Source of the DNA: an uncultured virus (IMG/VR IMGVR_UViG_3300027833_000038)
Taxonomy: Duplodnaviria; Heunggongvirae; Uroviricota; Caudoviricetes; Crassvirales
Direction: 5' to 3' (one strand)
IMG/VR virus record: IMGVR_UViG_3300027833_000038
Length of the DNA stretch: 20,000 nucleotides
The translations under genes and the position numbers were made by a program. The notes beneath the pieces are model-generated. The model did no database searches. It was not told the origin of the DNA and saw only the letters and a program-made list of their open reading frames with translations. Positions 1 to 10,929 of this stretch are shown one piece after another (the first letter of the stretch is position 1; each line of letters starts with the position of its first letter).

Positions 1-440
1 CTCTGTGTAACAGAACTTTACTTTGTTCCCCTAGAAAAGGAATGAAAGACAAGCTGAATAGAGACGTAAAAAAAAGAGAGTCTTTTAGACCCTTTGCTCC
101 TGTGTGCAGAAAAGAAGACGCACACATTTGGTTTGAACACGGAGAATATACTGACTACATGAGTCACAATGCAACCGTACATAATGTTGTGGATGATATA
201 GCTTCTGTTATACATGAAGACTATACAGCAAGACTACAAACAGTAACTTCTGAATCTAATCCCTTCATGTACTTACTACTTACTAGAATGAAAGAGCTAG
301 GACACCCTCCTGTACTTATAAACACTTCGTTTAATTTAATGGGAAAACCAATTTTAAATAGCTGGAAAGAAGCATTTGAGCTAAGGGATGGTGGTGGAAT
401 TCACTCTATAACCGATGGAACAAATAGAATATTATCATGA
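1..440 (+). CDS. Carbamoyltransferase (NodU/CmcH/TobZ family), C-terminal domain; 5'-truncated by the window edge
   Basis: The frame is open from nt 3 (LCNRTLLCSPRKG-MKDKLN), so the ATG at 42 is internal. Motifs LCNRTLL (canonical ALGNRSIL), KRESFRPFAPV, TARLQTV and PVLINTSFNLMGKPI match the Carbam_trans_C domain. Confidence 0.9.
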   Translation, partial: LCNRTLLCSPRKGMKDKLNRDVKKRESFRPFAPVCRKEDAHIWFEHGEYTDYMSHNATVHNVVDDIASVIHEDYTARLQTVTSESNPFMYLLLTRMKELGHPPVLINTSFNLMGKPILNSWKEAFELRDGGGIHSITDGTNRILS

Positions 441-1291
441 AAAGAATATTTATAAGCATATCCTCATATAGGGACCCAGACCTTATTAATACAATAGACG
501 ATGCACTAATGAAAGCATCCATTCCCGAAAGAATTGGCTTTGGAGTTGTTTTTCAGGGAACTAGAAACGAGTTCTTAGAGTTCCTGCCAAAAACTAATAA
601 CAAATTAGTATATATAAAACACGTTGAGATTGAAGATTCAAAGGGAACAGGATGGGCTAGAAACCTCATAACTAAAACTATGTTAGAGACTGAAGACTAT
701 TTTCTTCAAATAGATTCCCACACTAGATTTAAAAAAAACTGGGATGTTGAACTAATATCTTTTTATGAATCAATCGGAGAAGAGTGTATGGTTTCTGCGT
801 ACCCTCCTCACTTTGGAAGAAATGAAACGTATGAAGTTTACTCAAAAAGAAACTTAAATAATCATGCTATAGTTGTAGGCTTTACAGAAATGTACTCATT
901 TAAAGACACTAAGGGTCGTATTCCAGAAGAAGACTATGAAGATTCTATAACTGCTGCTGGAGCTTTTCAGTTTTGCTCAAACGAGGTGGCTAAGTCATTG
1001 ACCTTTGAAGAATACTTTAATCCATGGATGGACCAAGAAATTTCTTCTTGCCTTGCATATATGGGTGGTTACAATATATATGCTCCTAAAGATGCTTTTG
1101 TTTGGCATTGTTATGCAGATAATCATATAGGTTCAGACGAAAAATGGAGACCTCTTATTGCTGATGACAGAATTATATCAGATTTTGACAGGTATCCTTT
1201 TGAAACAATAAAGACTTGGAAAAGAAATAGGTCTTTTGAAGATTGGAAAAATAGAGTTCAAGAGGATATTAATTTAATTAAAGATTGGTAA
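437..1291 (+). CDS. GT-A glycosyltransferase, GT60 / Skp1-hydroxyproline GlcNAc-transferase-like (Pfam GlcNAc)
   Basis: Motifs IFISISSYRDPDLINTI, GTGWARN, YFLQIDSHTRFKKNWD (DxH), SAYP, AGAFQF and VWHCY. ATGA overlap with the upstream gene. Confidence 0.8.
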   Translation: MKRIFISISSYRDPDLINTIDDALMKASIPERIGFGVVFQGTRNEFLEFLPKTNNKLVYIKHVEIEDSKGTGWARNLITKTMLETEDYFLQIDSHTRFKKNWDVELISFYESIGEECMVSAYPPHFGRNETYEVYSKRNLNNHAIVVGFTEMYSFKDTKGRIPEEDYEDSITAAGAFQFCSNEVAKSLTFEEYFNPWMDQEISSCLAYMGGYNIYAPKDAFVWHCYADNHIGSDEKWRPLIADDRIISDFDRYPFETIKTWKRNRSFEDWKNRVQEDINLIKDW

Positions 1292-2271
1292 TGATAAAAA
1301 CAGCTTTAGTATTAGGAGGAGGAGGATTTATAGGTTCTCATTTAGTTAAAAGATTAAAAGAAGAGGGCTACTTTGTTAGGGCAGTAGATTTAAAAAAACC
1401 CGAATTTTGGAAAAGTTATGCTGACGAATTTATTGTAGGAGACTTAAGAAATCCTCAAATAACTAATTCAGCATTTTCTCATTTAGAGGAAAAAACTTAT
1501 TTCGATGAAGTTTACCAACTTGCTGCTGACATGGGAGGAGCTGGATATTTATTTACAGGAGACAGTGATGCAGATATAATGCACAACTCTGGTTTGATAA
1601 ATCTAAACGTTCTTCATGCTGCTAATGAAAAAGGATGCGGAAAGCTTTTTTACGCAAGTAGTGCTTGTGTATATCCTGAGTACAATCAAATAGACCCCGA
1701 AAGCCCCAAGTGTACAGAAGACAGTGTTTATCCAGCAGAACCAGATTCTGAGTATGGATGGGAGAAACTGTTTAGTGAAAGAATGTACATGGCTTTTGCA
1801 AGAAACAAAGAAATAAACGTAAGAATAGCTAGATTTCACGGCATATTTGGTCCTTACGGAACTTGGAATGACGGAAAAGAAAAAGCTCCTGCTGCAATAT
1901 GCAGAAAAGTTGCAGAATCAAAAGACAGTATTGAAATCTGGGGAGACGGAGAACAGACTCGTTCTTTTATGTATATAGATGATGCTGTAGAAACAATTAG
2001 AAGATTTATGATGAACGATGACTTTCAAGGTCCAATGAACATAGGCTCTGAAGAGATGGTTACTATCAATCAATATGCGGACATGGTAATGTCTGTAGCT
2101 GATAAATATTTAGATATAGTTCATATAGAAGGACCCCAAGGAGTTAGAGGAAGAAACTCAGATAACACCTTAATGGAAGAGAAACTTGGATGGACTCCAG
2201 ACGGTTCTTTAATAGACGGAATACATAAAACTTATCAGTGGATTGAGAAGCAAGTGCAAAAAACGTCCTAA
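1291..2271 (+). CDS. GDP-mannose 3,5-epimerase-like NAD-dependent epimerase (extended SDR)
   Basis: GGGGFIG Rossmann motif, LAADMGG, SSACVYP (catalytic Cys), YGWEK (YxxxK), EKAPAAICRK (catalytic Lys), WGDGEQTRSF and GVRGRNSDN. The start is placed at ATG 1291 (TAATG overlap with the upstream stop) rather than TTG 1285. Confidence 0.9.
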   Translation: MIKTALVLGGGGFIGSHLVKRLKEEGYFVRAVDLKKPEFWKSYADEFIVGDLRNPQITNSAFSHLEEKTYFDEVYQLAADMGGAGYLFTGDSDADIMHNSGLINLNVLHAANEKGCGKLFYASSACVYPEYNQIDPESPKCTEDSVYPAEPDSEYGWEKLFSERMYMAFARNKEINVRIARFHGIFGPYGTWNDGKEKAPAAICRKVAESKDSIEIWGDGEQTRSFMYIDDAVETIRRFMMNDDFQGPMNIGSEEMVTINQYADMVMSVADKYLDIVHIEGPQGVRGRNSDNTLMEEKLGWTPDGSLIDGIHKTYQWIEKQVQKTS

Positions 2272-2280
2272 ATAATATTG

Positions 2281-2288
2281 TAAATTTG
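2281..2288 (+). promoter_or_regulatory. Bacteroidota sigma-A -7 element (TAaaTTTG), 4 nt before ATG 2293
   Basis: Exact TAnnTTTG in a 21-nt intergenic gap. No clear -33 TTG at the expected spacing. Confidence 0.5.
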
Positions 2289-2292
2289 CTGT

Positions 2293-3033
2293 ATGGCACA
2301 AAATAGCAATGAAACATTAGGGTTCAGTGAACTAAATAAAGGCTGGACATCATTTTATTCTTTTATTCCTGAAGAAATGGTTAATATTAAATCAGACTTC
2401 TTTACATTTAAGAACGGTAATGTGTACAAACACAACATAAAAGGCGCCAGCAGAAACACTTTTTATGGGCAAGTGTACCCTAGCATAATCGAAACTTTAA
2501 TAAATCAAGACCCAGAAACCGTAAAAAACTTTAGAACACTCAACTTAGAGGGTTCTTCTGGATTTTGGAGGGTAGAAATGACTACTGATTTAGATAAGGG
2601 TGGAGCAACTCACGCAGATTTTGAGGAAAGAGAAAGGTTATTTAAAGCTCACATAAGAACAGATAGAGACGATTCTTTAAATACAGACAGACTTACAGTT
2701 CAAGGATTAGGTACTTTAATATCTAGACAGGATACTAGTTTGTTTTTTAGGTTTATAGATAATGCTATTGAACAAGGGGATTTAGTTTACCAAATATATG
2801 CAGATAAATACGAGTTTCTTGGAGAGATAAAATCGGTTTTTGATAACTACATTTTACTTGATGGAATAAGAAAAGACGTGAAGCTAGGTCAATTTTGCTT
2901 TGTTAGCAAAGACCCTGTTATTGAAAGTTATGGATTAAAAGGATATTTTAGTAGTGTTGTATTAACTAGCTATGAGTCTACAGATATGGAGTTGTTTGCT
3001 GTTAGTACGGAAGTAACCCAAAGTAGTATTTAA
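2293..3033 (+). CDS. Virion structural protein resembling the C-terminal part of podophage tail stabilisation/nozzle proteins
   Basis: Pattern TLGFSE..KGWTSFYSFIPE..FFTFKNGNVYKHN..RNTFYG..KNFRTLNLEG and C-terminal GLKGYF..ELFAVSTEV, recognised from Bacteroidota podophage tail genes. Lies upstream of the GNAT and ejection genes. Confidence 0.6.
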   Translation: MAQNSNETLGFSELNKGWTSFYSFIPEEMVNIKSDFFTFKNGNVYKHNIKGASRNTFYGQVYPSIIETLINQDPETVKNFRTLNLEGSSGFWRVEMTTDLDKGGATHADFEERERLFKAHIRTDRDDSLNTDRLTVQGLGTLISRQDTSLFFRFIDNAIEQGDLVYQIYADKYEFLGEIKSVFDNYILLDGIRKDVKLGQFCFVSKDPVIESYGLKGYFSSVVLTSYESTDMELFAVSTEVTQSSI

Positions 3034-5454: not shown

Positions 5455-8400
5455 ATGGATAATGTTGAAGAGTTATATAACGGTCTGATAGAAGACGGAA
5501 GTCTAACAGCAGAAAATACTTCTTTAGAAAAATTTAGAGTAGACTTACAAGATGAGGGGTATGCTGAAGAGCTATATAATGGACTTTATGACTCTAAGGA
5601 TTACACTTTAGATTACGGTAGTTTTGTTGAGACTTATTCTACACCAAAAAACATAGACCCTCTTGATACTAAAGCCGATACTGGAGATAAGCCTAATATA
5701 ATGTTGCAGGATTTCTCTTTATCTGATGAACTTTTTAATGATAGTGAGGAAGTTAAGTCTCAGTTTAGAACTTTTTATAACTGGCAAGGTAAACTTGAAG
5801 TTGAAGAGGATAAAGATGGTCAGTTTTTAAAAGGAGCCTTTGGCGAGTTTATCAACATGATGCCTATGGGCGATTGGATTGACGACCAAGCTAGAGCTTT
5901 TAGTTCTGGAAGGGAAGATGTTGATGTGCAGGAAACTGGAAATGAAATAATGAATCAGCATTTTGCAGGAAACAAAATAAGCGTTGACCAAGCAAACGAA
6001 ATGCTTAAACAGCTATATGAAAGTCAAAGTACTCCTCGCTCTCAGGAAGTTGAAAACTTTGAAAATATTTTGGTTGAAAATGGTATGGACGGTTTTGCTG
6101 CTGTAAAAGCTATATATGAAGAGCCTAGCGCTGCAATGGAATATGTTACTCGAAGCATATCATCCATGATTAACTGGGATAATGCTGGAGTTGCGGCAGC
6201 TACTATGGGCACTATGACTGCTGGAGGTGCAATGATAGGGGGTCCTGTTGGAGCTTTATCTGGATTTTTAACATCAATACCTGCTGCTATGGCTGCTGCT
6301 GGAGCCAATACCGATATGGGTATGTCTTACGCTAATTTTTTTGCAGAAGAACTTGGAGAAGACTATACTAGAGAAGATTTAAAAGCTCTTATAGAAGACC
6401 AAGACAGAATGGATAACATAGAGAACAAGGCGTTAGCTAGAGGTGTTTCGATTGCTGCTGTTTCAGCTTTTACAGCAGGCATAGGGGCTAATGTAGCTGC
6501 TAATGTTTTTAGAAACGGAAGAAGAGGTATTAGAGCAAGTGCAGAAGCTTTTGCTAGAGTAACTCCTTTATCTATGGCTGGCGGAGCTACTGGAGAAGCT
6601 TTAGCTCAAACTACTTCAGGTCAAGATTTTAGCGGAGCAGAGGTTGTTTTAGAGGGACTTTTAGACCCTATCGGAAGCATTGGAACTACTATAGGTGGTT
6701 TTGGACAAGCTATAGCTTCTGCACCATCTTACAAAATAAACGGAGGTGGTACTACAAAAGCAGAGTTCATTAGGAGATTTAATTCAATGACTGACGAGCA
6801 AGCTAAAAGAGCTTCGTTTGAAGTAAACAATGATGAGGACACTTTCAGCGTAATAGATGACAGGTTAGGTTCTTTAAAAGTTAGAGAAGAAATTAAAAAA
6901 GTCTATGGAGACATGGACGAAGAGCAAATAACAAGATTAAGTAGCTTAGAAGCAGAAAAGAAAAAAGTTTCAAAGCTTAATTCTGAGACAGCTAAAAAAA
7001 GAGCAGCAGAAATAAACCAGGAAATTGATGAGGTTGTAAACATTTATAAAACAAAAAGAGATGTTATTGGTGTTTTATCTGCTCCTTATTATGATTTAAA
7101 TATAACGAGTGTTGAGGATGCTCAATCTAAAAGAAAAACTAAAGAATACAAGTCATACATAAACAAGGCTAAAAGATTAGCTGAAACAATGAACCTAACG
7201 GTTTCAGATGTAAACGATGGCATTGGAGGTTACTTCCTAGATGATGGAACCTATCTTCAGGAATTATCTTCAGAGGTTTATTTAGAAGGCGCTACCTATG
7301 AGCAAGCTATCGAATATGCTTCTATTTTAGGAGCTATAACTCCTGAAACTCAAGAAAGCACTATAGCAGGTATGATAGTGGGTCCTGGAGAGGGAGATGC
7401 AGGTAAATTTACTTTTGCAATAGAAGATAATAGTGTACTAGAAGACGTTAGAAGTGCTCTTGATGAGCTTAAAATTGAGTATTCAATGAATACTGATACA
7501 GGGGAGATAGGAATTATTGACTTTTCTAATGGAGATGATGTTGAACTTAACGAAAAACTTGGTATCTTTGTAGAGGTACTGGAAAAAAACCAAATAAATC
7601 ATGAGCAAAAATCTGAGAGAATCCGTTCAAAGTATATTGGCGCAAAAGACAGGGCTGACAACTTACAACAAATTAAAGAATCTTCCGATAAGTACGGAAA
7701 GAATGGGGAAAGCATTCGTTACATCGCCGAAAAAGCAGAGCAAAGGAACGAAGAATACTTAGGAAATAAGACTCCTCCTCCTCCTGAAGAAACTCCAAGC
7801 CTAGAGCCAGTAGTTGTAAGAACTAATGTCAGAAAAATATATGACGCTTTAGGACAAAAGAAAGCCATCAAAAAAGTAAGAAGGTTTTTCTTAGAAACTT
7901 TTTATAGCGGTGGCGGATTAGATTCTAAATCCGAAGAAATAATAAGAGCCTTTAGAAGAAAAGGAACTGCAACGCAAAATTTCTTAAAAACAGAGTCAGC
8001 TATATTTGAGGCTCAATTTGAGTTGGACACAAAAAAAATGTCTACTTCAGATGCTATGCTTTACAAGACAGCAATAAACGACTATCTATCAGGAAAAACA
8101 GACATTGAACTTTCTCCAGAAATGAAACCAGTTCTTGATGAGATGCGTTCACAGATTGACCAAAGAACAAACATACTGTTAGGATTGCTAAAGGAAAAGG
8201 GTAGACCTGGACCTGAGCTTGACCAGTTAATAGAAACTTTAGAAAACAACAAAGGTTCTTATTTACATAGAGCATATTCTGCTTTTAAAGATTTAAGCTA
8301 CATGGAAGAGCTTCTTTCTGACCCATCAATGGCTCGTTCTGAAATAAATGAAACTTATGATTTGCTAGTTGCTGAGACAGCAATGGACCAAGGAATTACT

Positions 8401-10929
8401 GTTGATGAAGCAAAAGATTTAGTTGACCAATATATTGCGGACACCTTTAGTTCCCCAGACAGAGGAACTCATATAGCATCTTTGGCTGATGGAAAAATAT
8501 CTTCTCCATTTTTAAAAAAGAAAAATAAAAATCTTTCTGATACTTTTAGAAAATTCTTAGGGGAAATAGATGACCCTTTATTTAATTATGTAAACACAAT
8601 TGAGAAAGTTTCTGGATATGTTGCTTCTGTTGAATACCAATCAAAGCTTTCAGATTTTTTAAAAGAAAGTGGTATTGCTACAACCAAACCTAACAGAGAC
8701 TCGGGAAGAACAAATCAACTTCAACTAGGAGCAAAAGGTCTTAATGTATTAGATAAGCTTTACGTGGACCTAGACTTTATAGAAGCTTTTGAATCAATTC
8801 AAAGACTAGCTCCTATTGAGGGCTCTTTAAAATATTTAGTTGCAGCTCAAGGAATAACTAAATATGGTAAAACAATTTTGTCTCCTACTACAACGGCAAG
8901 AAACTACATTTCAGGTTCTTTAATAACCCTGATGAATGGAGAAAACATATTAAATCCAGCAAATTGGAAAAAGGCTTCTAGAGCAGCTAAGTTAGCTTGG
9001 AACAGTCCTAAGAATCCTAAAGAAATTAAAGCCGAAGTACAAAGACTTATAGAACATGGAGTCTTACAGGATGGAGGTAGAGCTCAGGAGGTAATGATGA
9101 TTCTTAATGATATATATGCACTAGAATCAAAAAGAAGAACAGACGGTTTAAGCACTGAGGGAATGAGAAAGTTTAATGATGCCGTGACTAAGATATATCA
9201 GTTCGGAGATGATTACTTTAAAACATTTGCTTTTTATGAAAAGAGAGATGCCTTTATGAGAGAGGGTATGTCTCTTGAAGAAGCCGAAGAAATAGCTGCC
9301 TACAGAGTAAGAAAAGGTCAACCAACTTACTCCGAGCTTCCAAAAAACATGAGGAGCTTGAGAAGATTTCCCCTTACAGGAACGTTTGTTTCATTCCCTT
9401 ATTTAATTACAAAAGCACATAAAGAAAACTTAATGTTTATTGCTGAAGATTTTAAAGCAGGAAGAACAAAAATGGCTGCAAAAAGTTTAGCTAATTATGC
9501 TGCATCTGTCGCTATACCATACGGAATTGCTGAGGGAATGAAATCGGCACTTGGAGTTTCTGACGAAGAGGATAAAGCTTTGAAAGACATGGCTCCAAAA
9601 TATTATAAAGATGCGCAGTTTATATATACATCAAAAGACGAAGAGACCAACGAGTTAACTTATTTTGATGTAAACTCAATAGCACCTTCAGCTCAAATAG
9701 TACAGGGATTAACTATATTGGCTCAAGACAGACATGGAAGAAATCTTTCAGACAAAATAGGAGAGTCAGTTATGTCTCAATTAAAGCCATACGTTAGTTT
9801 AGATTTATTAGTAAATACTGGAACTGCTGTTATGTCTGGTAAAGACCCTAACAGTGGTAAAAATATTGGAGAAGATACTTACGACAGATTAAAGTGGGGT
9901 GTAAATAACATATCTCCTGGAGTAGTAAGAAATTTAGCGAACATAGCACGTTCTCAAGGATGGTTCGAGTTAGATGAAATAAATAAATTTACAGGAAAGA
10001 AATATACTTTAGAAGATGAACTTGCAGCATTGCTTGGTCTTAGGTTTCAAACAACAAACTGGAATTTACAACTTCAGAGCTACGCAAAAGGTCAAAGCAT
10101 TGATTTTGCTAATGATGTTAAAGGTCAGCTCAGAGACGTAAAATCACAACAAAAAATTCCACTACAAGAGGTTAGTATGATTGTTTCTGATATGTACGAA
10201 AAAGATGCAGAGTACAGTGGTAATTTATTACATCAAATTGAAGTAGCTAGAAAACAAAATTTAACTGAATCTGAAATAGTTGACGCTTTGTCTGCTGCTG
10301 GAATAAGAGCTAATGATATAAACTCACTAATGAAGGGAGAGTTTATGGAGCTTAAAGGAATAGGAACTGAAGTATACAAGAAAGAGATAGAATCTTTAAG
10401 CAGTAGACCAGACCTAGCCGACAACATGAAAAGAAATTTAGATACTTATCAGTATTTAGTTGGAGAAAGAAATGCTGACGGTAGAGCAAAAACTGACTTA
10501 TATAAGCTATATGTTTCTGGAGCTGATGATACAGTTGTTTTAGATAGAATCAAAAAAGCTTCTAAAAACATTTACAAAAGAAGTAAAACTCAAATAGGTT
10601 TTGATGAAAATGCGTTTACTCAAAAAGATATTGCTGATGCGGAAAATGTCTCTGTAAAAAGATATTTTAATATATACAAAGGATATAAAACTTTAGGTGA
10701 GAGTCCTAAACTTAGCAACCTTCCCATAAGCGCTAAAGCTACTATTGATATGATTTATGAAAAAGACCCTGAAATACAGTCGTTTTTATTTCATAAATTT
10801 TTAGATGGAAAAACTGATGATAAATCTATAAACGGCTTAAACACATTGTACAAGTCTATAACAGGAAAAAATATGTCTAAGACAGTTCTTGAGTTACTTG
10901 TGTATAGAATCAAACAGGATAAAAAATAA
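5455..10929 (+). CDS. Large ejection / polyvalent virion protein (1824 aa)
   Basis: Acidic N-terminus and Gly/Ala-rich hydrophobic helices (about aa 245-420). An alpha/beta insert (about aa 537-730) precedes a PPPP linker. The helical C-terminal region GDDYFKTFAF..EAEEIAAYRVRKGQPTYSELP..FPLTGTFVSFPY is typical of large phage polyvalent/ejection proteins. Confidence 0.7.
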   Translation: MDNVEELYNGLIEDGSLTAENTSLEKFRVDLQDEGYAEELYNGLYDSKDYTLDYGSFVETYSTPKNIDPLDTKADTGDKPNIMLQDFSLSDELFNDSEEVKSQFRTFYNWQGKLEVEEDKDGQFLKGAFGEFINMMPMGDWIDDQARAFSSGREDVDVQETGNEIMNQHFAGNKISVDQANEMLKQLYESQSTPRSQEVENFENILVENGMDGFAAVKAIYEEPSAAMEYVTRSISSMINWDNAGVAAATMGTMTAGGAMIGGPVGALSGFLTSIPAAMAAAGANTDMGMSYANFFAEELGEDYTREDLKALIEDQDRMDNIENKALARGVSIAAVSAFTAGIGANVAANVFRNGRRGIRASAEAFARVTPLSMAGGATGEALAQTTSGQDFSGAEVVLEGLLDPIGSIGTTIGGFGQAIASAPSYKINGGGTTKAEFIRRFNSMTDEQAKRASFEVNNDEDTFSVIDDRLGSLKVREEIKKVYGDMDEEQITRLSSLEAEKKKVSKLNSETAKKRAAEINQEIDEVVNIYKTKRDVIGVLSAPYYDLNITSVEDAQSKRKTKEYKSYINKAKRLAETMNLTVSDVNDGIGGYFLDDGTYLQELSSEVYLEGATYEQAIEYASILGAITPETQESTIAGMIVGPGEGDAGKFTFAIEDNSVLEDVRSALDELKIEYSMNTDTGEIGIIDFSNGDDVELNEKLGIFVEVLEKNQINHEQKSERIRSKYIGAKDRADNLQQIKESSDKYGKNGESIRYIAEKAEQRNEEYLGNKTPPPPEETPSLEPVVVRTNVRKIYDALGQKKAIKKVRRFFLETFYSGGGLDSKSEEIIRAFRRKGTATQNFLKTESAIFEAQFELDTKKMSTSDAMLYKTAINDYLSGKTDIELSPEMKPVLDEMRSQIDQRTNILLGLLKEKGRPGPELDQLIETLENNKGSYLHRAYSAFKDLSYMEELLSDPSMARSEINETYDLLVAETAMDQGITVDEAKDLVDQYIADTFSSPDRGTHIASLADGKISSPFLKKKNKNLSDTFRKFLGEIDDPLFNYVNTIEKVSGYVASVEYQSKLSDFLKESGIATTKPNRDSGRTNQLQLGAKGLNVLDKLYVDLDFIEAFESIQRLAPIEGSLKYLVAAQGITKYGKTILSPTTTARNYISGSLITLMNGENILNPANWKKASRAAKLAWNSPKNPKEIKAEVQRLIEHGVLQDGGRAQEVMMILNDIYALESKRRTDGLSTEGMRKFNDAVTKIYQFGDDYFKTFAFYEKRDAFMREGMSLEEAEEIAAYRVRKGQPTYSELPKNMRSLRRFPLTGTFVSFPYLITKAHKENLMFIAEDFKAGRTKMAAKSLANYAASVAIPYGIAEGMKSALGVSDEEDKALKDMAPKYYKDAQFIYTSKDEETNELTYFDVNSIAPSAQIVQGLTILAQDRHGRNLSDKIGESVMSQLKPYVSLDLLVNTGTAVMSGKDPNSGKNIGEDTYDRLKWGVNNISPGVVRNLANIARSQGWFELDEINKFTGKKYTLEDELAALLGLRFQTTNWNLQLQSYAKGQSIDFANDVKGQLRDVKSQQKIPLQEVSMIVSDMYEKDAEYSGNLLHQIEVARKQNLTESEIVDALSAAGIRANDINSLMKGEFMELKGIGTEVYKKEIESLSSRPDLADNMKRNLDTYQYLVGERNADGRAKTDLYKLYVSGADDTVVLDRIKKASKNIYKRSKTQIGFDENAFTQKDIADAENVSVKRYFNIYKGYKTLGESPKLSNLPISAKATIDMIYEKDPEIQSFLFHKFLDGKTDDKSINGLNTLYKSITGKNMSKTVLELLVYRIKQDKK
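7541..7570 (+). promoter_or_regulatory. Putative internal Bacteroidota promoter TTG-N19-TAtcTTTG
   Basis: TTG at 7541-7543, a 19-nt spacer and TATCTTTG at 7563-7570, followed by an A-rich leader and ATG 7601. Confidence 0.5.
7601..7762 (+). CDS. Putative nested +1-frame ORF, 53 aa basic peptide (MSKNLRESVQSILAQKTGLTTYNKLKNLPISTERMGKAFVTSPKKQSKGTKNT)
   Basis: Manually translated from ATG 7601 to TAG 7760-7762. Leader aaaaaaaccaaataaatc has A at -3 and lies downstream of the promoter match. Host-frame codons here are unusually C/G-ending. Confidence 0.45.
   Translation: MSKNLRESVQSILAQKTGLTTYNKLKNLPISTERMGKAFVTSPKKQSKGTKNT

What the first reader, a model, noticed from the sequence alone, without database searches (positions are those of the whole stretch)
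7541..7762. Internal promoter plus overprinted 53-aa ORF right after the putative effector domain: candidate nested antidote
Seen: TTG-N19-TATCTTTG (a full Flavobacterium/Bacteroides promoter match), an A-rich leader with A at -3, then a +1-frame ORF from 7601 to 7762 that ends just before the PPPP linker. In this stretch the host frame uses many C/G-ending or rare codons (atc cgt, ggc, gac agg, tcc, ggg, cgt tac atc gcc), unlike most of the gene, as expected for dual coding. Inference: an effector domain plus a separately transcribed inhibitor or regulator peptide hidden in a structural gene, analogous to toxin-immunity pairs. It might prevent SAM depletion while the virion protein is made. 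Caveat: the -7 motif alone occurs by chance several times per window, and a 53-codon ORF is short.
Basis: partly seen in the sequence, partly recalled or inferred. Interest (0 to 1): 0.8.

Follow-up and report, generated by a model that had tools for sequence, protein, structure and literature searches.

The report
Small gene hidden inside phage gene
A 53-codon gene for a small, strongly basic protein is written in a second reading frame inside a giant virion-protein gene of a marine Bacteroidota phage; every relative of that gene segment examined keeps it, so it is very probably real, although no annotation shows it and its job is unknown.

Summary
ATG 7601 to TAG 7762 is a 53-codon ORF in the +1 frame of the 1824-codon virion gene 5455-10929. 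It lies 30 nt downstream of TATCTTTG (7563-7570).

It is far more than chance. All 48 sources carrying the ~240-residue host domain (39 distinct records, about ten deep lineages, host identity down to ~27-32%) hold a homologous 47-103-codon ORF. It is always in the +1 frame at the same end of the domain. Random synonymous recoding keeps it open with its ATG in only 0.3-10% of trials per lineage.

Host synonymous variation is lowest in the whole gene exactly here, and the same dip appears in a second clade. The +1 peptide is conserved at least as well as the host protein, with differences falling on +1 wobble positions. Free-standing homologues exist in three Bacteroidota genomes.

I read it as a real nested gene for a basic peptide (pI ~10.6), made up of an N-terminal helix and a conserved P-x-x-x-x-x-x-G-(K/Q)-x-F-(V/I) motif.

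The -7 promoter box is conserved in 9 of 18 lineages. No transcript-start or translation data exist. The 'antidote to a SAM-lyase effector' idea is untested, and the fold resemblance behind it is weak.

The parts
5455..10929 (+). Host gene: 1824-aa giant virion (polyvalent/cargo-type) protein of a crAss-like marine phage
   Evidence: ORF. phrog_22602 'virion structural protein', E 2.2e-114, over aa 923-1640. A neighbouring gene has the crAss muzzle C-terminal domain. 13 full-length homologues of 1817-1834 aa.
7072..7779 (+). Host domain (aa 540-775) with the invariant PETQESTIA motif; the nested gene overlaps its C-terminal strand and two helices
   Evidence: Domain HMM hit at 7072-7779. AlphaFold2 model pLDDT 87.9, pTM 0.85; strand 177-189 and helices 191-203 and 205-231 lie under the ORF. 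Found at different positions in proteins of 1327-3312 aa.
7541..7543 (+).
   Evidence: Present, but the aligned position reads TAG in L003/L004/L005. Not conserved.
7563..7570 (+). Bacteroidota sigma-A type -7 box TATCTTTG (TAnnTTTG)
   Evidence: Conserved at the aligned site in 4 of 5 clade relatives, while the other three in-gene motifs are conserved in 0 of 5. Sits at -38 from the ATG in 9 of 18 lineages. The host codons read xxT Axx TTT Gxx even though the amino acids change (G/A/V, I/T/K/R).
7575..7575 (+). Predicted transcription start (inferred, not observed)
   Evidence: The -7 box occupies -12 to -5 relative to the start in Flavobacterium (passages of PMC9723704; PMC6847099). This gives a 26-nt leader against a published median of 24.
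7576..7600 (+). A-rich leader without a Shine-Dalgarno sequence; contains the +1-frame stop TAA at 7595-7597
   Evidence: A at -3, -12 and -13. Among 18 nested lineages, A at -12 and -13 in 15 each and A at -3 in 9; A fraction 0.55 over -20..-1. The upstream +1 stop lies 0-2 codons before the first ATG in 14 of the 18 lineages; L056 (24 open codons), L060 (8) and L099/L104 (6 and 1 by my reading) are the exceptions.
7601..7762 (+). Nested +1-frame gene, 53 aa, pI 10.6: N-terminal helix plus the conserved motif P29-x6-G36-K-A-F-V40 and a basic tail
   Evidence: conserved ORF. (selection on the +1 protein). (helix 3-26). (pI).
7672..7728 (+). Core of near-total synonymous invariance (host aa 740-758), encoding the conserved peptide motif
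   Evidence: Host aa 740-754: 2 synonymous differences observed against 25.9 expected. Here host codon position 3 varies less (0.14) than position 1 (0.25), which is the +1 wobble position.
7774..7785 (+). PPPP linker of the host protein just after the nested stop codon

Best explanation
The ORF at 7601-7762 is a genuine protein-coding gene nested in the +1 frame of the giant virion-protein gene. It belongs to a small-protein family that travels with one particular ~240-residue domain (motif PETQESTIA) wherever that domain sits in giant phage proteins.

Shown:
- The frame, its start and its stop are kept across very deep divergence.
- Selection acts on the +1 amino-acid sequence.
- The product is a 47-53-aa basic peptide, extended to 69-103 aa in three lineages. 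It has an N-terminal amphipathic helix, a conserved C-terminal P-(F/Y/L/I)-x5-G-(K/Q)-x-F-(I/V) motif and a Lys/Arg/Ser tail.

Inferred:
- It is translated on its own from AUG 7601 by the Shine-Dalgarno-independent, A-rich-leader route of Bacteroidota.
- In this phage the message is a short internal transcript started near 7575 by host RNA polymerase at the -7 box TATCTTTG. This would let the peptide be made independently of the late virion gene.

Function (inferred, low certainty): the C-terminal motif is disordered on its own and probably docks as a strand onto a partner. My odds:
- about 35%: it works on or with the domain that houses it
- about 35%: it is an independent host-directed (conflict or takeover) factor
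- about 10%: it is specifically an antidote to a toxic enzyme domain
- the remainder: something else
For: (1) Conservation of the ORF.
- The same ATG, the same stop and an upstream +1 stop are present in four deep lineages of the 1820-aa protein, at host identity 41-57%.
- The ORF is present in 48 of 48 domain-bearing sources (39 distinct records), always +1 and always at the domain's C-terminal end. This includes hosts with only 27-32% identity in the domain.

(2) It is not forced by the host protein.
- Random synonymous recoding keeps the frame open with an ATG in 0.3-10% of trials per lineage.
- The jointly open +1 run is 54 codons against a next-best of 23. It is the longest in any of the five alternative frames.

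(3) Synonymous suppression.
- The lowest observed/expected ratio of the whole gene is at aa 714-758 (43 against 82.9; the next-best window has z -3.6 against -6.1).
- At aa 740-754 it is 2 against 25.9.
- Codon-invariant columns number 12 of 25 in the ORF against 112 of 469 elsewhere, p 0.009.
- An independent 2200-aa clade shows 57 against 99.2 over the homologous ORF.

(4) Selection on the +1 protein.
- In a 16-codon block the +1 frame scores BLOSUM 1.79 per site (41% identity) against 1.21 (29%) for the host frame. In two control blocks the host scores 3.76 and 2.15 against 0.54 and -0.21 for the +1 frame.
- Over 26 codons and 12 lineages the observed +1 similarity is 1.45, against a recoding null of -0.22 +/- 0.10. 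None of 2000 replicates reached it.
- Host position-3 diversity falls from 0.51 to 0.29 (core 0.14) in clade 1 and from 0.45 to 0.28 in clade 2. In the clade-1 core, position 1, the +1 wobble, becomes the most variable.

(5) A peptide-first search returned 7 of 7 viral loci nested in the same way.

(6) Free-standing homologues that are not nested in a larger gene occur in three bacterial genomes. One carries TACATTTG ending 21 nt before its ATG.

(7) Promoter and leader evidence.
Against: - There is no direct evidence of expression. The only RNA-library material is assembled contigs, which cannot show a start. One of them begins upstream of the proposed start.
- The -7 box is missing in 9 of 18 lineages and the -33 TTG is not conserved.
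- The middle of the ORF (host aa 725-739) shows no synonymous suppression (30 observed, 30.1 expected), and the N-terminal half of the peptide is poorly conserved. Only about the last 25 residues may be constrained.
- The peptide model is of modest confidence (pLDDT 70.8) and gives no structure for the conserved motif.
- In L065 and L088 the aligned Met is replaced and an ATG six codons upstream must serve.
- The recoding null ignores shared ancestry.
- Many peptides in the 48-of-48 tally were in the profile's training set.
- The peptide matches no Pfam or PHROG family.
Confidence: 0.8

Rival explanations
1. Chance ORF. The +1 frame is open only because this part of the host protein is conserved and poor in codons that make +1 stops. 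Nothing is made from it.
For: The ORF is short. The host segment is well conserved within the 1820-aa clade. The -7 motif is common in the window.
Against: Recoding simulations give 0.3-10% per lineage for open frame plus ATG, and 0 of 2000 replicates were free of stops in all 12 lineages. The +1 peptide is conserved where the host sequence is not (GESVRYI against GGQDLYN). The ORF is present in 48 of 48 sources. Free-standing homologues exist.
Confidence: 0.02
2. A nucleotide-level element causes the synonymous constraint, and the open frame is incidental. Candidates are an RNA structure, a protein-binding DNA site, a packaging or replication signal, or a promoter serving something else.
For: The 57-nt core (7672-7728) is almost invariant at the nucleotide level within the 1820-aa clade. 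Suppression also extends upstream of the ATG, over host aa 690-724.
Against: Across deeper lineages the nucleotides differ, yet the +1 amino acids persist through +1-synonymous changes (GGG AAA GCA TTC GTT against GGC AAG ACC TTT ATA). Diversity shifts to the +1 wobble position in the clade-1 core. The window RNA folds no better than shuffles (z +0.71; 148 of 200 shuffles fold at least as well). An element of this kind explains neither the conserved ATG and stop nor the free-standing protein homologues.
Confidence: 0.04
3. Programmed +1 ribosomal frameshift. Ribosomes translating the giant gene shift into the +1 frame inside the domain and stop at 7760-7762. This yields a truncated N-terminal protein with an alternative tail, rather than a separately initiated peptide.
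For: The +1 stop lies exactly at the domain/linker boundary. One database protein (P0081) runs from the host-frame domain straight into the +1 peptide. In L057 the host frame carries an in-frame TAG while the +1 ORF stays open.
Against: A +1-frame stop lies 0-2 codons upstream of the first ATG in 14 of the 18 lineages. The ATG or a nearby ATG is kept in all of them. I saw no conserved slippery site: the A-run at 7583-7589 is absent from relatives. Free-standing genes begin at the equivalent Met. P0081 may simply be an assembly indel.
Confidence: 0.06
4. The peptide is an antidote or inhibitor that binds the SAM-lyase-like effector domain and prevents self-harm (SAM depletion) while the virion protein is made.
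For: The ORF and the domain co-occur strictly in phage genes. The domain model has a weak match to phage SAM lyase (6zm9_A, Z 6.7, rmsd 2.8, 101 aligned), to 7ock_L 'MAT in complex with SAMH' (Z 5.6) and to SAM-AMP lyase 9gab_D (Z 4.7). The peptide's conserved motif is unstructured alone, as docking motifs often are.
Against: The SAM-lyase match is below the RND-pump subdomain matches (Z 7.7) and inside the tool's stated noise range. Foldseek found nothing at E <= 0.001 in the PDB. The domain has no Pfam family. Co-occurrence is automatic for a nested gene. Free-standing copies occur in two genomes where the domain was not found (the MAGs are incomplete). No toxicity or binding test was possible.
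Confidence: 0.1

Closest known systems
Phage lambda Rz1 embedded in Rz (+1 frame), with embedded, overlapped and separated forms in other phages (recalled knowledge; also named as closest in earlier scan notes)
   Same: A small gene lies wholly inside a larger same-strand phage gene in the +1 frame, with its own start codon. Relatives also exist as separate genes.
   Different: Rz1 is an outer-membrane lipoprotein with a signal peptide and a lipobox Cys. This peptide has no Cys and no hydrophobic segment. The host gene is a giant virion protein rather than a lysis gene, and no functional link between the two products is shown.
phiX174 nested genes (E inside D, B inside A) and viral overprinting in general (recalled; reviews listed, seen as listing and abstract only)
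   Same: Dual coding of one DNA stretch, suppressed synonymous change in the older frame, and a short basic or disordered novel product.
   Different: Those cases occur in tiny genomes under size pressure. Here the genome is probably ~70 kb (homologous contigs run to 63-69 kb). The nested gene is ancient, moves with a shuffled protein domain, and has free-standing homologues. It may therefore not have arisen de novo in this position.
Polyvalent proteins of phages and conjugative elements (Iyer et al. 2017, PMC5512222; abstract and 'find' passages read)
   Same: The host is a giant multi-domain protein delivered with the DNA. The domain model matches predicted structures of proteins labelled 'large polyvalent protein associated domain-containing'.
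   Different: The text of that paper has no occurrence of 'overlapping' or 'frameshift'. The nested coding layer is not part of the published description. Membership of this host protein was not tested domain by domain.
Bacteroidota sigma-A promoter (-33 TTTG / -7 TAnnTTTG) and SD-less, adenine-tuned initiation (PMC6847099 and PMC9723704, passages read)
   Same: TATCTTTG fits TAnnTTTG and its refinement TAHHTTTG. The implied leader is 26 nt against a published median of 24. A is present at -3, -12 and -13.
   Different: The -33 element is only TTG and is not conserved. Position -6 is T in 14 of 18 lineages. No transcription start was mapped.

Membership tests
Nested (overprinted) protein-coding gene in a virus | Alternative frame kept open, with conserved start and stop, across diverged homologues | tested here: met
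   48 of 48 domain-bearing sources. Same ATG and stop in clade 1. Per-lineage null probability 0.003-0.10.
Nested (overprinted) protein-coding gene in a virus | Local drop of synonymous substitution in the host frame that coincides with the ORF | tested here: met
   Gene-wide minimum at aa 714-758. Replicated in a second clade. Not uniform: there is no drop at aa 725-739.
Nested (overprinted) protein-coding gene in a virus | Purifying selection on the alternative-frame amino-acid sequence | tested here: met
   +1 similarity 1.45 against a null of -0.22 +/- 0.10, reached by 0 of 2000 replicates. The +1 frame is conserved at least as well as the host frame. Diversity shifts to the +1 wobble position.
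Nested (overprinted) protein-coding gene in a virus | Direct evidence of expression (transcript start, ribosome footprints, peptide) | not testable with these tools
   Only assembled contigs of two RNA libraries touch the region. No raw reads and no proteomics were available.
Embedded o-spanin (Rz1-like) | N-terminal signal peptide with a lipobox cysteine | tested here: not met
   No Cys and no hydrophobic stretch in any of the 20 aligned peptides.
Toxin-antidote / effector-immunity pair | The partner domain is toxic or enzymatically active, and the small protein binds and neutralises it | not testable with these tools
The domain has no family assignment.
Phage SAM lyase (for the host domain) | Fold and sequence-family match to solved SAM lyases | tested here: inconclusive
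   6zm9_A Z 6.7, rmsd 2.8, 101 of 129 residues aligned, 13% identity. This ranks below RND-pump subdomains and lies within the tool's noise range. Foldseek gave nothing at E <= 0.001. No Pfam hit. Catalytic residues were not checked.
Bacteroidota sigma-A promoter | -7 box TAnnTTTG at -12..-5 of a mapped start, with a -33 TTTG | tested here: inconclusive
   The -7 box is present and conserved in 9 of 18 lineages. The -33 element is only TTG and is not conserved. No start was mapped.
C2H2 zinc finger (raised by profile hits) | Two Cys and two His that bind zinc | tested here: not met
   The long multi-stretch hit I read (P0042) is a run of Zn-finger repeats, PFSCSECGKxFIRKS. The peptide has no Cys in the motif and lacks the His pair. 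I treat the resemblance as spurious.
Polyvalent protein (Iyer et al. 2017) for the host gene | Giant virion- or DNA-associated protein that joins several unrelated effector domains | tested here: inconclusive
   1824 aa; the PHROG hit is to a virion structural protein. The domain model matches LPD-labelled viral proteins. A relative's C-terminal part is annotated as ADP-ribosyltransferase. Individual domains were not assigned.

The most novel reading that the evidence does not exclude
The PETQESTIA domain and its nested peptide are a two-part module that has moved together through many giant phage proteins. In this reading the peptide is the domain's obligate partner (regulator, chaperone or co-effector) and is made by host RNA polymerase from its own promoter at a different time from the late virion gene. 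Bacterial mobile elements have captured free-standing, tandem or membrane-anchored copies as decoys or sensors against incoming phage proteins. More broadly, giant polyvalent phage genes would carry a systematic hidden layer of +1-frame small genes. A second, unrelated nested gene (MPFKSQAQRRWMY...) found here in relatives points the same way.
Probability: 0.15. Interest if true: 0.85.

Novelty: new member of a known kind. Interest (0 to 1): 0.72.

Why it matters
Gene callers never report genes nested inside long ORFs, so this family is missing from the annotation of its host genes. Small-protein records that match it do exist in protein collections, without any indication that they are nested.

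The comparative evidence here is unusually strong for a 53-codon gene: about ten deep lineages, two independent synonymous-rate dips, and selection on the second frame. The case shows that a shuffled protein domain can carry its own embedded gene from one protein architecture to another.

If the peptide acts with or against the domain, it gives a handle on the function of an uncharacterised module of the giant proteins that marine Bacteroidota phages pack into virions. Together with the second nested gene seen in relatives, and with similar unverified notes from this scan, it suggests that giant polyvalent genes are a good place to look for hidden phage genes.

Tried and rejected
- megablast of the gene against GenBank phages found no match. 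tblastn found only distant C-terminal relatives (aa 802-1671) that lack the region. tblastn of the domain against phages found no match.
- The window's own assembly is not held. The nearest record, G001, is an 11-kb fragment with no match to 7000-8200.
- A first locus search with aa 501-882 gave only two marginal loci, L001 and L002, which I did not use.
- DNA for P0011 and P0012 could not be found in viral contigs. P0003, P0011, P0012 and P0013 were therefore compared as proteins only.
- The peptide matches no family in Pfam or PHROGs at E <= 0.01.
- The Atlas look-up of free-standing P0056 gave no usable hit.
- Of the long proteins in the peptide-profile hit list, the one I read (P0042) is a run of C2H2 zinc-finger repeats. 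I rejected it as spurious.
- Complex prediction (domain plus peptide) was not available, so binding is untested.
- RNA structure: z +0.71. Rejected as an explanation.
- Sequencing runs: two metatranscriptome runs hold small parts as contigs. X19 has a 163-nt contig at 7484-7644. X20 has a 1174-nt contig of an L040-like relative. These cannot show a start, a strand or transcription itself, so I did not use them as evidence either way.
- The A-run at 7583-7589 as a frameshift site: it is not conserved.
- Earlier-findings look-ups by place and by sequence found nothing.
- Literature searches for a prior report listed nothing on a nested gene in these proteins. This covers only those three searches of the held library.
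Full report
WHAT IS THERE

The window is a piece of a crAss-like marine phage. The gene at 2293-3033 carries the crAss muzzle C-terminal domain, and the minus-strand block encodes primase/helicase, a Sak annealing protein and nucleases. The gene 5455-10929 encodes an 1824-aa protein. It has no Pfam family, but it matches phrog_22602 'virion structural protein' over aa 923-1640.

- TTG at 7541-7543, then 19 nt, then TATCTTTG at 7563-7570.
- An A-rich leader with A at -3.
- ATG at 7601 and TAG at 7760-7762, giving 53 aa in the +1 frame.
- The PPPP codons at 7774-7785.

The codon remark is also right. GC3 is 0.407 in host codons 716-769 against 0.233 for the gene, and no other 54-codon window is higher (0 of 1772).

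On its own none of this is compelling. TAnnTTTG occurs 27 times in the window, four of them in this gene, and the gene holds 28 alternative-frame ORFs of 30 aa or more.

CLOSE RELATIVES

GenBank phages hold nothing that covers the region. A protein search found 13 full-length homologues of 1817-1834 aa. I obtained DNA for four deep lineages of this clade, at 41-57% pairwise protein identity: the L003/L004/L005/L037/L038 group, L054, L006/L039 and L040/L041.

In every one the +1 frame has an ATG at the aligned site. This holds even where the host His-Glu has become Tyr-Gly. Each also has a stop two codons upstream, 53 open codons and a stop at the same place.

Several tests show this is not forced by the host protein:
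- Recoding each host protein at random with its own codon usage keeps 'open plus ATG' in 2.0%, 0.3%, 6.1%, 2.7% and 1.3% of trials.
- Across the whole gene the jointly open +1 run here is 54 columns against a next-best of 23. It is the longest in any of the five alternative frames, the next being 47 on the antisense strand.
- A synplot-style count of synonymous differences against per-amino-acid expectation puts the gene-wide minimum at aa 714-758: 43 observed, 82.9 expected, z -6.1, with the next window at -3.6. The z value is inflated because the lineage pairs are not independent; the rank is what matters.
- Codon-invariant columns among amino-acid-invariant ones number 12 of 25 in the ORF against 112 of 469 elsewhere (one-sided p 0.009). 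A first version with another set of representatives gave 15 of 31 against 141 of 542, p 0.011.

At finer scale the dip has two parts. One covers aa 690-724, spanning the promoter-like stretch and the start. The other, extreme, covers aa 740-758 (2 observed, 25.9 expected at 740-754). There is no dip at aa 725-739.

DISTANT RELATIVES

The segment aa 540-775 is a discrete domain. It recurs at different positions in proteins of 1327-3312 aa.

I collected DNA by routes that do not depend on the ORF:
- a degenerate pattern for the invariant host motif PETQESTIA;
- host-protein alignments of two other clades;
- the genome collection.

Every domain-bearing source has a homologous ORF in the +1 frame at the domain's C-terminal end. 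That is 48 of 48 sources, 39 distinct records, scored with a peptide profile. Many of these peptides were in the profile's training alignment, so their matches are by construction. ORF lengths are 47-53 aa in most lineages, 69-72 aa in L057 and L060, and 103 aa in L100-L105.

Per-lineage null probabilities are 0.003-0.10. A search that started from the peptide instead returned seven viral loci, and all seven are nested in the same way. L083, a homologue of one giant protein, has neither a domain hit nor a peptide hit.

WHICH FRAME IS SELECTED

Around the conserved peptide motif the +1 translation is better conserved than the host translation. Mean BLOSUM62 per site is 1.79 (41% identity) against 1.21 (29%) over nine lineages. 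In two control blocks of the same domain the host frame scores 3.76 and 2.15, and the +1 frame 0.54 and -0.21 with many stops.

Between the window and L056 the host reads GESIRYI against GGQDLYN. The +1 frame reads GKAFVT against GKTFIT, and the nucleotide differences fall on +1 third positions.

Over 26 codons and 12 lineages the observed +1 similarity is 1.45, against 1.32 for the host. Random synonymous recoding gives -0.22 +/- 0.10 with a maximum of 0.11. None of 2000 replicates reached the observed value, and none was free of stops in all lineages.

Pairwise diversity by host codon position changes from 0.25/0.20/0.51 in the rest of the domain to 0.23/0.14/0.29 in the ORF and 0.25/0.12/0.14 in its core. 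In that core the +1 wobble position becomes the most variable. A second clade shows the same drop at host position 3: 0.23/0.12/0.45 to 0.30/0.17/0.28. That clade also has a synonymous dip over its copy of the ORF, 57 observed against 99.2 expected, the second lowest in its gene.

An RNA-structure explanation finds no support: z +0.71.

THE PRODUCT

The window peptide has pI 10.6, with 11 Lys+Arg and 2 Asp+Glu. All 20 aligned peptides but one have pI above 9.7.

The alignment shows a variable, polar N-terminus. It is followed by G-x-x-(F/L/Y)-x-x-x-(L/F)-x-K, then P-(F/Y/L/I)-x5-G-(K/Q)-x-F-(I/V), and finally a Lys/Arg/Ser tail.

AlphaFold2 gives a helix for residues 3-26 (block pLDDT 64-84) and no structure for the conserved motif (mean pLDDT 70.8). 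This fits a motif that folds on a partner.

No Pfam or PHROG family matches. A profile search of 1.84 billion representatives gave 112 hits at E <= 0.001. Of the 38 I read:
- Several are the same nested peptides called on fragments.
- One (P0042) is a run of C2H2 zinc-finger repeats, which I reject because the peptide lacks the Cys and His ligands.
- Others look free-standing. These include two-copy proteins (P0038, P0055, P0056) and proteins with an N-terminal membrane segment by my reading of the sequences (P0040, P0091, P0102, P0106).

I could see DNA for three free-standing cases. Searches of 301 and 401 sampled Bacteroidota genomes found matches in 3 and 2 genomes, nested copies included.
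- A 139-aa gene lies just after mnmE, an integrase and a type I restriction-modification operon (L112).
- A 63-aa gene lies near a PIN gene and has TACATTTG ending 21 nt before its ATG (L113).
- Three tandem 63-66-aa genes lie beside a tyrosine-recombinase gene (L114).

The domain was not found in the first two genomes (the MAGs are incomplete).

THE HOST DOMAIN

The AlphaFold2 model is confident (pLDDT 87.9, pTM 0.85). It shows alternating helices and strand pairs, followed by a long strand and two helices that lie under the nested ORF.

- Foldseek found nothing in the PDB at E <= 0.001.
- The wide structural search gave RND-pump subdomains (Z 7.7) and phage SAM lyase 6zm9_A (Z 6.7, rmsd 2.8, 101 aligned). 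All are within the range the tool calls common arrangements.
- In the viral library the model matches giant proteins, some labelled as carrying 'large polyvalent protein associated' domains.

The SAM-lyase idea therefore stays open and weak.

EXPRESSION SIGNALS

The -7 box at 7563 is conserved at the aligned site in 4 of 5 clade relatives. The other three in-gene motifs are conserved in 0 of 5.

The host codons there read xxT Axx TTT Gxx while the amino acids change (Gly/Ala/Val; Ile/Thr/Lys/Arg). The motif sits at -38 from the ATG in 9 of 18 lineages.

Passages I read place the sigma-A -7 box at -12 to -5 and give a median leader of 24 nt in Flavobacterium psychrophilum (PMC9723704). They also name A at -3, -6, -12 and -13 as positive for initiation in F. 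johnsoniae (PMC6847099). The window then implies a start at about 7575 and a 26-nt leader. A is found at -12 and -13 in 15 of 18 lineages each, at -3 in 9 of 18 and at -6 in 4 of 18.

No transcript 5' ends could be seen. The RNA-library material consists of contigs only.

VERDICT

The +1 ORF is very probably a real nested gene (about 0.8-0.9). Separate initiation at its ATG is the most economical reading. The internal promoter is plausible for this lineage (about 0.4-0.5). The antidote function is untested (about 0.1).

Nested same-strand phage genes are a known kind (lambda Rz1 in Rz and the phiX174 genes; recalled knowledge). This is a new, deeply conserved and unannotated member of that kind. 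My three literature searches and the passages of the polyvalent-protein paper show no report of it.

Earlier unverified notes of this scan describe other small genes nested in giant phage genes. They agree with the theme but were not tested here.

Noticed in passing
Relatives only, not in the window: L056:6557-6691, L073/L075/L079:10042-10206, L074:10040-10204, L080:10030-10194, L087:9772-9936, L088:9763-9936, L083:9964-10122, L084/L085:10543-10701, L089:8858-8980, L090:7439-7561: A second, unrelated small ORF (MPFKS(Q/E)(A/K)QRR(W/Y)(M/L)Y..N.P..A..W..., 40-57 aa, Lys/Arg tail). It is in the +1 frame of the giant gene, just upstream of the domain, in the lineages where I checked the frame (L056, L075, L076, L079, L087, L088). 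It also occurs in loci without the domain, where the frame was not checked. It coincides with the strongest synonymous dip of that clade's gene (13 observed, 97.5 expected). It has weak matches to phrog_1375 (best E 0.0011) and no significant Pfam match.
   Followed up: partly
L057:3-578 (same record as L108): In this Chitinophaga-labelled MAG contig the host frame of the domain carries an in-frame TAG, while similarity continues after it. The 69-aa +1 ORF spans the break intact.
   Followed up: no
Protein P0081 (152 aa; no DNA seen): A database protein that begins in the host-frame domain (…SPDVQESTIAARYVEE…) and continues into the +1 peptide (…MPYTSKVGKGFVMSS…). It is either an assembly indel or a natural frame fusion.
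   Followed up: no
L112:743-9103; L114:1261-3142; L113:3599-4713: Free-standing homologues of the peptide sit in mobile or defence-type surroundings. One lies after mnmE-integrase-HsdM-HsdS-HsdR. Three tandem copies lie next to a tyrosine recombinase. One lies near a PIN gene.
   Followed up: partly
L100-L105 (e.g. L104:5004-5312): In this lineage the nested ORF is 103 aa. It has a second conserved part (…SISPSRELRKLRIDIIKEFSA…), also seen in P0075.
   Followed up: no
window 3-3033: A carbamoyltransferase C-terminal part, a GlcNAc-type glycosyltransferase and an NAD-dependent sugar epimerase lie directly upstream of a 246-aa gene. That gene matches only the last ~40 positions of the crAss muzzle protein plus the muzzle C-terminal domain. 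This is an unusual neighbourhood, or a short form of the muzzle gene.
   Followed up: no
window 7583-7589: A run of seven A in the host frame (GAA AAA AAC) just upstream of the nested ATG. It resembles a slippery site but is not conserved in relatives.
   Followed up: yes
Peptide motif against C2H2 zinc fingers (P0042): The conserved PF-x5-G(K/Q)xFIRKS motif resembles the hairpin part of C2H2 zinc-finger repeats (PFSCSECGKxFIRKS) closely enough to pull in long multi-stretch proteins in a profile search; the one I read is a zinc-finger protein. The peptide lacks the metal ligands.
   Followed up: partly
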